9,804 nt of DNA from a virus (Duplodnaviria > Heunggongvirae > Uroviricota > Caudoviricetes): IMG/VR virus record IMGVR_UViG_2671180662_000011. One strand, given 5' to 3'. Below, in pieces: positions 6,001 to 9,592 of this stretch (the first letter of the stretch is position 1; every line of letters begins with the position of its first letter). The position numbers are program-made.

Positions 6001-9000
6001 GAAAGCATGGCAATAGCGCGGGACGTTTGTTCGCCGTTGGAGTGTCGTTGTGGCCCCCAACCCTGACAAATATAAGCAGGTTTTGCTGAACCGATCTCTC
6101 GTGCCAACTGGATAATTTTTTCTGCCGGGATGCTGGTGATTTTTGCTGCCCATTCCGGCGTTTTAGCTATGCCGTCAGGCCCTTCGCCCAGAATATAGGC
6201 TTTATAATGCGCGTTACGTGGTGCGTTGGCGGGCAGCGTTTTTTCATCGTAACCAACACAATATTTGTCGAGAAATGGCTGATCGACCATGTTTTCAGTA
6301 ATCAGTACCCAGGCAATCGCACAGGCCAGTGCGCCATCGGTGCCAGGGCGAATGGGCAGCCATTCATCTTCACGCCCGGCAGCTGTGTCGTTATAGCGTG
6401 GATCGATGACGATCATGCGTGCGTTTGAACGTTCGCGGGCTTGCTCGACGTAGTAAGTGACACCACCGCCGCTCATCCGCGTTTCTGCCGGGTTATTTCC
6501 GAACATAACGACCAGTTTCGTATTGGCGATATCATCCGGGCTGTTGCCATCATTGGCACCGAACATATAACTCATTGCGGCACTGATCTGTGCGGTACTG
6601 TAGCTGCCATAGCGACTGAGAAAACCCCCGCAAGAGTTCATCAGACGGTACGGGACGTTCGAGTTGGTGATATTTCCGCCATCTACGCCTGTTCCGTACA
6701 GGACATGTACAGCCTCATTGCCGTAATCTTTCAGGATCCGCCGAAGATTATCACTGATGGTATCCAGGGCTTCGTCCCAACTTATCCGTTCAAATTTACC
6801 TTCACCGCGCTCGCCGACGCGCTTCATGGGATATTTCAACCTGTCAGGATGATTCATCCGTCGGCGGATAGAGCGCCCGCGTAAACATGCCCGAACCTGA
6901 TGATTACCGTAAACGTCGTCACCTGTCGTATCAGACTCCACCCAGTACACGGTGTCATCTTTCACATGCAAACGTAGCAGACAGCGGCTCCCGCAGTTAA
7001 CGGTGCAGGAACTCCAGACCGTTTTCTCTTCTACCGGAGCCTCTGCCGCCCGGACCATTTGGGAAAATGGCAGAGTGAAAGCACTGCTTGCCAGCGCGAG
7101 ACTGCCAAGTGCGGAGGTTTTCATCAGACTTCTATGGCTGATTTCAGCCTTCATGAGCGCCTCTGTGGTATGGATTTTCATCATTACTCACTTATTGCTT
7201 TTCAAACAAAATGTCATGCCAGAATTTATGGTTGTAGTGGGTTATATTTTTTCGATCTCGACCAGATTAGTGTGCTGCGGGTTTCCCTTCGCCAGTGGTG
7301 AAGGGCGCAGAGTGGTTAGCGTATTCACACATCCGCCATGGTCGATTTTATCGCCAGACATATTGGGCTCGTGCCAGGCTCCCTGGCCCATAGCGCTAAC
7401 TCCAGGGAGAATGCGTGGTGTTACTTTGGCTGGTAGCCGAACTTCGCCACGATGGTTAAACACCCGCACCATATCGCCGTTGGCAATCCCACGTTTCTGT
7501 GCATCTATAGGGTTGATCCACACCTCCTGACGGCAGGCTGCCTTCAGGACATCAATGTTGCCGTAGGTCGAGTGAGTACGGGATTTGTAATGGAAACCAA
7601 ACAGTTGCAGTGGGAAGGTTCTACGTTCAGGGGAGTCCCAGCCTTCAAAGGTTGAGGCATAAACTGGCAGTGGGCTTATCACTTCATCTTTTTCCAGTTC
7701 CCAGGTACGGGCAATTTCCGCCAGCTTGCTGGAATAAATTTCAATCTTACCGGAAGGCGTTTTAAGTGGATTTGCCTCGGGGTCGTCACGAAATGCTTTG
7801 TAGGCGACAAAATGGCCATTGGGATCTTTACGCTTATAGATACCCATTTTTTTCAGTTCGTCGTAAGACGGTAACGCCGGATCTTTGGCAAGCATTTTGG
7901 CGTACAGATGTTGTAACCATTGTTCCTGCGTGCGACCTTCTGTGAACTTTTGATAGACGTCAGGTCCAAGACGTTTCGCGACTTCACTCAGGATCCAGTA
8001 AATCGGTTTACGTTCGAATTTTTCGCTGGTGACTGGCTGGAGGAAAATGAGATATCCCATGTTACCGGCGTAGTCGTTAGGAATAATATCTTCCTGCTCA
8101 ACGGTCATCAGGTCTTCCAGCAGAATGTCGGCATATTTTGCCGATGAGGTCATAAAGTTTTCGATGACCACAATCATTTCGCATTTCGATTCGTCCTGCA
8201 GAATTTCATGCGTTTTGTTGATGTCAGAATGCTGATTAACGAGGGTATTTCCCGCGTAGTTCCAGATGGACTCCATTGCCAGACGGATGGATGGACTTGA
8301 AGTAGTTGACTCAATGCTACTTAAGGTCCTGATATGACTGACATTAATCATGATAACACTGTATATCCATCCAGTTCTTTCTCTGGGTCTCCCTATCGGT
8401 ATCAGCAAGTCTACACCTCAAGCCCTGACACAAGGCTGACACAAATCAATCTACTCAGCGTAGCTAAGCCTCAGTTAGTCCGCAGAGCCAATGGTCGATA
8501 TACTATCCGCTTCAGACTCAAGGGACAGACCACACCGTTTCTTTCAGTATCGACCCGCAGCACAGACAGGAGAGTAGCCACAATGCGTCAGAGAGAGCTT
8601 GCAGCCACCGCTAAGGCCTTCATGTTGGATAGGCCTGAAGTCTCACTACAGGAGCTTACAGAGCATCTCCGGTCTATGGCTGAGCAGTTCCTGACAGACG
8701 CTAGTGACGATTACTGGAATGGACTTGAGGTCGCTACTCTGGTCGACGAGAAGTCCAACCTGAAGGAGCTAGCCGCTACGCAAGCCTTGAGTCTGGACCA
8801 GCAGAAGGGCATAAGGTTAGCGCTGGAAGTCCTGACCGCAGCACAGCAGAGAGTCGACACTGGTGATACCTCTGGTCTGATTAAGCTGATTGATGATAAT
8901 AACCTTACTGATGACTCAACTATAGGCGACTCTACGTCAATTCTGAATAATGAGCAGGGGGATAGACCGGCAGTTTTCACACAGGAGCGCCAGTCATCTG

Positions 9001-9592
9001 TAGTTTTTTCAAGCCTAGTGTCCTCGCTGCTGGCTGAGAAGGTCCAGACCCTGAAGACATCCAGCTACAAGGACCTCTCGTCCTCACTCAATACTGTCTC
9101 CCGGTTCCTGCCTGAAGACATGGACCTGATGTCCCGCTCTGGGTGGCTGGCTGTCAGGGACTCTATGCTGGCTTCTGAGGTGAGACCATCGACAATCAAC
9201 AAGCTGCTGACCAAAGCGAAGATGTGTCTCGATTATGGCCTGATGAATGGGCAACTTGAGGGCCGCAACCCTATTGAACGGATGAAGCTGACCAAGGATA
9301 TCGACTCCAAGCGCAGAGCGTTCACAGACGAGGAGCTGGAGAGACTTCTGGTCCGTGTTGAGTCTGAGTGAAGTGGCACACTGAATTTGGCCACCTGAAC
9401 AGAGGTGATATGCTCACCTCAGAACAACACAGGTGCTCCAATGAAAAAAAGAAATTTTAGCGCAGAGTTTAAACGCGAATCCGCTCAACTGGTTGTTGAC
9501 CAGAAATACACGGTGGCAGATGCCGCCAAAGCTATGGATGTTGGCCTTTCCACAATGACAAGATGGGTCAAACAACTGCGTGATGAGCGTCA

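What the first reader, a model, noticed from the sequence alone, without database searches (positions are those of the whole stretch)
8334..9371. Integrase N-terminal half with non-E. coli codon usage, truncated exactly at an IS911 end that donates the stop codon
The ORF strongly prefers AAG, GAG, GAC, TCC and CTG yet also uses AGA, AGG, CTA and ATA, unlike the flanking ynf and prophage genes, which suggests recent acquisition from a compositionally distinct element. IS911 inserted at the boundary between the core-binding and catalytic domains; its terminal TGA closes the frame. The catalytic domain should lie beyond the IS if this is a simple insertion.
Basis: partly seen in the sequence, partly recalled or inferred. 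Interest (0 to 1): 0.45.

Follow-up and report, generated by a model that had tools for sequence, protein, structure and literature searches.

The report
IS911-split integrase of ynfE island
This is the front two-thirds of the integrase gene of a small mobile island sitting inside the ynfE gene, cut off by an IS911 insertion sequence; it is an ordinary, already catalogued case of gene decay in Shigella flexneri.

Summary
ORF 8334-9371 (345 aa) matches, at about 99-100% identity, the first 345 residues of 526-aa tyrosine integrases found intact in E. coli, Citrobacter and Enterobacter. IS911 begins at 9369 and its terminal TGA is the stop codon. In 8 of 10 closed genomes that are 99.8-100% identical to the right-hand 4.4-4.8 kb of the window (NCBI names the protein 'integrase [Shigella flexneri]'), the IS is flanked by a 3-bp GAG duplication. 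In the seven with readable sequence it is a complete 1249-bp copy, and the remaining 181 codons, holding every catalytic residue, follow in frame. Two genomes instead show IS-adjacent deletions. The window's own sub-lineage exists only as draft contigs that end inside the IS, so its own state cannot be read. The codon bias is real (AAG 15/16, GAG 17/21, AGA/AGG 14/28) but not for TCC or CTG. The break lies about 20 residues inside the catalytic domain, not at the domain boundary. The gene belongs to a ~6.6-kb integrative element with a 13-bp att core that splits ynfE. TIGER (Mageeney et al. 2020) already lists it as Eco892.7.ynfE and Sfl13.8.ynfE. Verdict: ordinary and already known.

The parts
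7242..8268 (-). 3' (C-terminal) fragment of ynfE, left stranded by the island insertion
   Evidence: Aligns to uninterrupted ynfE up to window 8272. RefSeq annotates it as 'molybdopterin dinucleotide binding domain-containing protein, missing N-terminus'.
8256..8268 (.). 13-bp att core GTAGTTCCAGATG (island/ynfE crossover region); island DNA starts at 8269
   Evidence: The same 13-mer lies at both island ends in L001, L003, L026 and L028 and once in uninterrupted ynfE (attB, L012). The flanks switch from ynfE to island sequence at this point.
8334..9368 (+). Codons 1-345 of the island's tyrosine integrase gene (pseudogene fragment)
   Evidence: About 99-100% identical to residues 1-345 of the 526-aa integrases P0022 and P0023. 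The DNA is 99.6-99.7% identical to E. coli EC2.
8472..8618 (+). Codons 47-95: three-stranded sheet plus helix, a candidate arm-type DNA-binding module (inferred)
   Evidence: AF2 model has strands 47-50, 56-62 and 69-73 and helix 79-95. The motif is conserved across the family. No direct homology hit, so the function is inferred.
8646..8894 (+). Codons 105-187: family-specific helical bundle
   Evidence: AF2 helices 105-121, 131-149, 154-176 and 180-187. Conserved in alignment A1. No match in Pfam or NCBIfam.
9006..9245 (+). Codons 225-304: four-helix core-binding domain
   Evidence: The profile aligns this region to lambda Int residues 62-170. PHROG 1 integrase matches residues 219-339. AF2 helices span 225-304.
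9327..9368 (+). Codons 332-345: most of the first helix of the catalytic domain, cut by the IS
   Evidence: The PF00589 match starts at residue 334. AF2 helix spans 332-349. The conserved S325/R327 motif aligns with the start of lambda Int's catalytic domain.
9366..9368 (.). GAG: left copy of the 3-bp IS911 target-site duplication (codon E345)
   Evidence: Intact sequence reads GAGTCTGAG|TATCAG. Interrupted loci read ...TCTGAG|IS|GAGTATCAG.
9369..9804 (+). Left end of IS911 (left inverted repeat from 9369; orfA 9441-9743); its TGA at 9369-9371 stops the integrase frame; the window ends inside the IS
   Evidence: 98.6% identical to RefSeq-annotated IS911 copies. A complete 1249-bp copy is present in closed relatives.

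Best explanation
The ORF is a pseudogene fragment. It is the first 345 of 526 codons of the tyrosine integrase of a ~6.6-kb integrative genetic element that inserts site-specifically into the middle of ynfE, the selenate reductase catalytic subunit gene, through a 13-bp att core. In a Shigella flexneri lineage a copy of IS911 transposed into codon 345/346 and duplicated GAG. The first three bases of its inverted repeat (TGA) end the reading frame. The fragment keeps the N-terminal sheet/helix module, a family-specific helical bundle, the core-binding domain and most of the first catalytic-domain helix. It has lost all active-site residues (R373, K407, H472, R475, H498, Y508), so it cannot catalyse recombination. 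The inferred consequence is that the island can no longer excise by itself and ynfE stays split. Shown: the identity of the fragment, the IS boundary, the target duplication and the downstream catalytic part in close relatives, the att core, and the loss of the catalytic residues. Inferred: loss of excision, and that the window's own genome still has the downstream part.
For: The ORF and the IS junction are read directly. Identity to the intact 526-aa integrases is about 99-100%. PF00589 matches residues 334-508 of the intact protein. The catalytic residues are invariant in a 25-member family alignment and all lie after residue 345. The profile matches XerC-like 4a8e (5.7e-16) and lambda Int (8e-14), including lambda Int's core-binding domain. 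The AF2 model (pLDDT 73.7) has lambda Int as its best Foldseek match, E = 5.9e-07. IS911 identity comes from RefSeq annotation. A 3-bp GAG duplication flanks the IS, with the integrase remainder beyond it, in L003, L004, L005, L006, L007, L009, L010 and L011; in the seven with readable sequence the IS is a complete 1249-bp copy and the remainder follows in frame. These loci are 99.8-100% identical to window 5048-9804, or to 5048-9462 for L006. The island is bounded by GTAGTTCCAGATG at both ends. The same island sits in the orthologous gene in a genome context with different neighbours and no ynfF paralogue, for a protein NCBI names from Enterobacter hormaechei, with a 99%-identical integrase. 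TIGER lists the islands Eco892.7.ynfE and Sfl13.8.ynfE.
Against: The window ends 436 bp into IS911, so the downstream part is not seen in the window itself. Its closest relative (L022, 100% identical over 63-9797) is a draft contig that also ends inside the IS. Two of ten closed relatives (L002, L008) have lost the downstream integrase part through IS-adjacent deletions. Loss of excision is inferred, not measured, and another recombinase acting in trans cannot be excluded. No promoter-like site above chance was found upstream of the ATG, so expression of the fragment is unknown.
Confidence: 0.93

Rival explanations
1. In the window's own genome the IS911 marks an IS-mediated deletion, so the catalytic part of the integrase (and perhaps island cargo) is gone rather than displaced by 1.25 kb.
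For: L002 has lost the integrase 3' part plus four cargo genes. L008 has lost everything through the ynfE 5' part. Both deletions start exactly at the IS911 right end and lack the right-hand GAG. The window's sub-lineage is known only from drafts that stop in the IS.
Against: 8 of 10 closed relatives carry the simple insertion with the GAG duplication. The left junction is identical in all of them, so the insertion came first and the deletions are later, strain-specific events.
Confidence: 0.18
2. The 345-aa product is a working protein in its own right, for example a DNA-binding factor that still recognises the island's arm or core sites and acts as a regulator or a dominant-negative blocker of recombination.
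For: It retains the predicted sheet/helix module, the helical bundle and the whole core-binding domain. The exact sequence is kept on 160 contigs, and partial versions on well over a thousand draft contigs.
Against: That conservation is explained by the recent common ancestry of S. flexneri strains, since the neighbouring non-coding DNA is also 100% identical. The frame ends because of an IS, which is the normal signature of pseudogenisation. No promoter-like site above chance was found. The neighbouring ynfE and ynfF genes are also decayed.
Confidence: 0.04
3. The junction is an assembly artefact: a chimeric join of an integrase-bearing contig to a repeated IS.
For: The window is bounded by IS sequence at both ends (IS2 at 1-63, IS911 at 9369-9804). 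That is where short-read assemblies tend to break or mis-join.
Against: The identical junction, base for base, is present in at least ten independently closed chromosomes and in many drafts. A matching right junction carries the target duplication.
Confidence: 0.01

Closest known systems
TIGER islands Eco892.7.ynfE and Sfl13.8.ynfE (Mageeney et al. 2020, Nucleic Acids Res 48:4052, PMC7192596)
   Same: A 7-8 kb integrative element that splits the Molybdopterin domain of ynfE in E. coli and S. flexneri. The paper lists it as a candidate case of 'regulated gene integrity'. The 8-kb size of the S. flexneri island fits 6.6 kb plus the 1.25-kb IS911.
   Different: In the text and the supplement passages I read, the paper does not discuss the IS911 interruption of the S. 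flexneri integrase. That interruption means the S. flexneri copy can no longer act as a reversible switch by its own integrase.
Lambda integrase (PDB 1z1g, 5j0n) and Tn1549 integrase (6en0-6en2)
   Same: Best structural and profile matches. They share the core-binding plus catalytic two-domain core with the R-K-H-R-H-Y active site.
   Different: Only 16-18% identity. The ynfE-island integrase is 526 aa, with a disordered N-terminus, an extra ~85-residue helical bundle and a ~30-residue disordered linker before the core-binding domain. Its N-terminal region defines a small family of 79 cluster representatives among 1.84 billion.
IS911 (IS3 family) insertions in Shigella genomes
   Same: TG...CA inverted-repeat ends, a 3-bp target duplication, orfA followed by orfB, and about 1.25 kb in length. 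From general knowledge, IS expansion and IS-driven pseudogene formation are typical of Shigella.
   Different: Nothing unusual. The only curiosity is that the IS's terminal TGA falls in frame.
Gene-splitting elements with regulated excision (skin element in sigK, prophages in comK and mlrA, as listed in PMC7192596)
   Same: An integrase-bearing element sits in the middle of a conserved coding sequence without restoring it.
   Different: No evidence here of regulated excision, and in this lineage the integrase is broken.

Membership tests
Tyrosine recombinase / phage integrase family (PF00589) | Catalytic domain with the conserved Arg-Lys-His-x-x-Arg-His/Trp-Tyr residues | tested here: not met
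   The window's 345-aa ORF ends before R373, K407, H472, R475, H498 and Y508. Pfam and NCBIfam give no significant hit for the fragment. The intact 526-aa homologue meets the feature (PF00589, 7e-14). The window therefore holds a fragment of a family member, not a functional member.
Tyrosine recombinase / phage integrase family (PF00589) | Helical core-binding domain N-terminal to the catalytic domain | tested here: met
   Residues 219-339 hit PHROG 1 'integrase' at 2.3e-09. The family profile aligns this region to lambda Int residues 62-170. The AF2 model has four helices at 225-304.
Tyrosine recombinase / phage integrase family (PF00589) | Overall fold like solved tyrosine recombinases (intact protein) | tested here: met
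   Foldseek top hits are lambda Int (E 5.9e-07), Tn1549 Int, Xer and Cre.
IS911 (IS3 family insertion sequence) | Terminal inverted repeats starting TG...CA and sequence identity to IS911 | tested here: met
   Window 9369-9804 is 98.6% identical to RefSeq-annotated IS911. Both repeat ends are found in closed relatives.
IS911 (IS3 family insertion sequence) | 3-bp target-site duplication and full length of about 1250 bp | tested here: met
   The IS is 1249 bp in seven closed relatives and is flanked by GAG/GAG in 8 of 10. This was tested in relatives; the right end is outside the window.
Site-specific integrative genetic element (genomic island) | Integrase gene next to one end, direct repeats (att core) at both ends, and an empty site in related genomes | tested here: met
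   The 13-bp core GTAGTTCCAGATG lies at both ends. The integrase gene starts 66 bp from the core. Uninterrupted ynfE occurs in L012-L021. The same site is used in a different genus-level context.
Regulated gene integrity (RGI) element | Regulated excision that restores the split gene under defined conditions | not testable with these tools
   Proposed for ynfE by Mageeney et al. on comparative grounds only. It would need excision assays.

The most novel reading that the evidence does not exclude
The ynfE island may be a true reversible switch for the YnfEFGH selenate reductase, as TIGER's authors proposed. In that case IS911 has locked it permanently 'off' in S. flexneri. Alternatively or in addition, the surviving 345-aa fragment, which keeps its putative arm-binding and core-binding domains, may still bind the att sites and influence recombination or local transcription.
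Probability: 0.06. Interest if true: 0.4.

Novelty: already known. Interest (0 to 1): 0.1.

Why it matters
It matters little on its own. It is a clean example of how IS expansion in Shigella immobilises a mobile island by breaking its integrase, and of how a split host gene (ynfE) then becomes permanently inactivated. Two side points have modest value. First, the S. flexneri entry in the TIGER 'regulated gene integrity' list carries a dead integrase, so it should not be counted as a reversible case. Second, the integrase belongs to a small, uncharacterised subfamily with an unusually long N-terminal region and strict specificity for one site inside a molybdoenzyme gene across genera.

Tried and rejected
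Pfam and NCBIfam scans of the 345-aa fragment gave only noise (SF3b1 and RpoH, E about 0.06). phmmer of the fragment against PDB sequences found nothing. Homology had to be shown through the intact homologue, PHROGs and a family profile.

I tried three routes to the window's own genome so as to read beyond the IS. The exact 345-aa product led to closed genomes with a different left flank. A prophage protein led to E. coli genomes without the island. A lineage-specific frameshifted prophage ORF led only to three draft contigs, the best of which ends inside IS911. One of those three contigs is 5-10 kb long, so the window may itself be a whole draft contig.

Pfam, PADLOC and PHROGs scans of the five cargo proteins of the EC2 island gave nothing significant, so the idea that the island carries a known defence system has no support.

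The promoter and terminator scan of 8100-9500 gave nothing above the shuffled expectation.

The extra ~1.25 kb inside the IS in L006 is masked as N in the stored data and could not be identified.

I considered that the break lies exactly at the domain boundary and rejected it. The conserved SxRxaFTxEE motif, the Pfam start (residue 334) and the modelled helix 332-349 all lie upstream of or across the break.

Full report
**1. What is in the sequence**

The ORF at 8334..9371 on the + strand exists and encodes 345 residues. From 9369 the sequence reads TGAAGTGGCACACTGAATTTGGCCACC..., followed by a 100-codon ORF at 9441-9743. This stretch is 98.6% identical to elements that RefSeq annotates as 'IS3-like element IS911 family transposase'. 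Homology to uninterrupted integrase genes in E. coli stops at 9368/9369.

**2. Codon usage**

The ORF uses AAG for 15 of 16 Lys, GAG for 17 of 21 Glu and AGA/AGG for 14 of 28 Arg. The ynfE and ynfF fragments next to it use AAG 6/25 and 7/30, GAG 5/26 and 13/35, and AGA/AGG 1/16 and 5/37. Fisher p is 1.6e-10 for AAG+GAG and 2.6e-4 for AGA/AGG. GAC is mildly raised (16/26). Total GC (51.5%) is host-like. In an intact copy of the island, the cargo genes share the AAG/GAG/GAC preference and a higher GC3 (0.57-0.63). The AGA/AGG usage is specific to the integrase gene.

**3. What the product is**

On its own the fragment has no significant Pfam or NCBIfam hit and no phmmer hit in the PDB. It does match PHROG 1 'integrase' over residues 219-339 at 2.3e-09.

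The protein-database search is decisive. The exact 345-aa sequence is named 'integrase [Shigella flexneri]' and occurs on 160 contigs. Slightly shorter 'partial' versions occur on well over a thousand draft contigs of about 40 kb, which suggests that draft contigs routinely end in or at this gene. Proteins of 526 aa that are 99-100% identical over the first 345 residues, each carrying PF00589, are recorded from E. coli (211 contigs), Citrobacter freundii (51) and Enterobacter hormaechei (70).

In the intact E. coli EC2 protein, PF00589 covers residues 334-508.

**4. Domain anatomy and where the break falls**

The N-terminal region defines a small family. An exhaustive HMMER pass over 1.84 billion cluster representatives found only 79 at E <= 0.001, most of them 430-530 aa long.

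In an alignment of 25 full-length members, these residues are invariant or nearly so: R373, K407, H472, R475, H498 and Y508. All lie after residue 345.

A profile of this alignment matches an archaeal XerC-like recombinase (4a8e, 5.7e-16) and lambda integrase (8e-14). Lambda's core-binding domain (residues 62-170) aligns to the region just before the conserved SxRxaFTxEE motif, which in this protein includes S325 and R327.

An AlphaFold2 model (mean pLDDT 73.7) gives the following layout:

- Residues 1-41: disordered.
- Residues 47-73 and 79-95: three strands followed by a helix.
- Residues 105-187: a helical bundle.
- Residues 192-221: a disordered linker.
- Residues 225-304: four helices, the core-binding domain.
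- From helix 332-349 onward: the catalytic domain.

Foldseek ranks lambda Int first (E 5.9e-07), followed by Tn1549 Int, Xer and Cre.

The IS break after E345 is therefore inside the first helix of the catalytic domain, about 20 residues past the domain start. It is close to the boundary but not at it. The fragment keeps every putative DNA-binding part and none of the chemistry.

**5. Is the rest of the gene beyond the IS?**

The window ends 436 bp into IS911, so this cannot be read directly.

Ten closed or long chromosomes that encode the identical 345-aa product were retrieved. Seven are 100% identical to window 5048-9804, two are 99.8-99.98% identical, and L006 is 100% identical over 5048-9462.

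In seven of them (L003, L004, L005, L007, L009, L010, L011) the IS is a complete 1249-bp copy. The intact sequence GAGTCTGAG|TATCAG has become ...TCTGAG|IS911|GAGTATCAG. That is a 3-bp GAG duplication, and the remaining 181 codons continue in frame. Gene callers find a PF00589 ORF there. L006 has the same two junctions, with an additional stretch inside the IS that is masked in the stored data.

L002 and L008 lack the right-hand GAG and resume 3.7 kb and 6.3 kb further along the island or ynfE. These are IS-adjacent deletions that came after the insertion.

The window's own sub-lineage also carries a prophage in ynfG. It could be traced only to draft contigs. The best (L022) is 100% identical to window 63-9797 and ends inside IS911.

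A simple insertion is therefore shown for close relatives and is the likely state of the source, at roughly 0.8. It is not demonstrated for the source itself.

**6. The element the gene belongs to**

In E. coli EC2 the integrase gene lies at the edge of a ~6.6-kb insert that separates the 3' 1026 bp of ynfE from its 5' 1413 bp.

Comparison with uninterrupted ynfE shows a 13-bp core, GTAGTTCCAGATG, at both ends and once in the empty site. In the window it lies at 8256-8268, and island DNA begins at 8269.

The island-specific DNA is found in 149 of 5426 complete E. coli genomes, always on the chromosome, at 88-99.6% identity.

Its cargo varies:

- Five proteins without any Pfam, PADLOC or PHROG match in EC2.
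- A KilA-N protein in WL7562 and in the loci carrying P0023.
- An AP2-domain protein in E308.
- A 163-aa and a 329-aa protein at the far end that are conserved in length and position across these copies.

For the protein that NCBI names from Enterobacter hormaechei, the element sits at the same position of the single orthologous molybdopterin-subunit gene, in a different neighbourhood, with a 99%-identical integrase. It is thus a site-specific element that has spread recently across genera. That explains the foreign codon usage.

**7. Literature**

Mageeney et al. 2020 (PMC7192596) name ynfE among 19 new candidate cases of 'regulated gene integrity'. Their supplement lists islands Eco892.7.ynfE and Sfl13.8.ynfE as disrupting the Molybdopterin domain. 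The 8-kb size given for the S. flexneri island fits 6.6 kb plus IS911. The island, including its S. flexneri copy, is therefore already catalogued. I found no discussion of the IS911 interruption in the text and supplement passages I read.

**8. Mechanism and consequence**

IS911 transposed into the integrase gene, which is shown. This removed the active site from the translated product, which is also shown. The inferred result is that the island can no longer excise or integrate by its own enzyme, and that ynfE is fixed as a split pseudogene.

The surrounding locus is decaying too. ynfF carries a 385-bp internal deletion, ynfG is cut by a prophage, and that prophage is cut by IS2. This is the usual pattern of IS-driven genome reduction in Shigella, by general knowledge.

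**9. Verdict**

The feature is ordinary and already known. Interest is low.

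Noticed in passing
window 5488/5489: ynfF carries a ~385-bp internal deletion relative to intact E. coli ynfF, which splits it into ORFs 5337-7184 and 5143-5451. The same deletion is present in all the S. flexneri loci retrieved.
   Followed up: partly
window 5047/5048: A prophage is inserted in ynfG, and only the first ~28 codons of ynfG remain (5048-5132). The same prophage/ynfG junction occurs in many E. coli genomes that have an intact ynfE. The closed S. flexneri genomes retrieved have an intact ynfG instead.
   Followed up: partly
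window 1-63 and 64-147: The left 63 bp are an IS2 end (100% identical to RefSeq-annotated IS2). It truncates a giant 2793-aa prophage gene (LPD5/LPD1/MuF_C/LPD38 domains) so that only its last ~84 bp remain. In the otherwise identical draft L022 the giant gene is intact.
   Followed up: partly
window 1463-1994 (- strand): A prophage gene that is 171 aa in E. coli relatives is frameshifted here into two overlapping ORFs of 128 and 109 aa. The 128-aa product occurs on only three contigs in the public collection, which makes it a marker of this sub-lineage.
   Followed up: partly
window 7242-8408 (- strand): The ynfE 3' fragment stays open for ~136 bp into island DNA. Gene callers therefore report a 369-aa hybrid ORF whose start overlaps the integrase start on the opposite strand. 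It is probably an annotation artefact, since it lacks the whole 5' part of ynfE encoding the N-terminal domains.
   Followed up: no
L002:11036-12400 and L008:11036-12400: Two closed genomes show deletions that start exactly at the IS911 right end. One removes the integrase 3' part and four cargo genes. The other removes the rest of the island and the ynfE 5' part.
   Followed up: yes
L001:14087-17950, L024:12211-15045, L025:11990-15932, L028:10982-14842: The island cargo is mosaic. The middle genes differ between copies (unknowns, a KilA-N protein or an AP2-domain protein). A 163-aa and a 329-aa protein at the far end are conserved in length and position. The EC2 cargo proteins match no Pfam, PADLOC or PHROG family, so what the element does for itself or its host is unknown.
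   Followed up: partly
window 8646-8894 (integrase residues 105-187): The integrase family has a conserved ~85-residue helical bundle and a disordered linker between the N-terminal sheet/helix module and the core-binding domain. This is unusual for tyrosine integrases, and the family is small (79 cluster representatives).
   Followed up: partly
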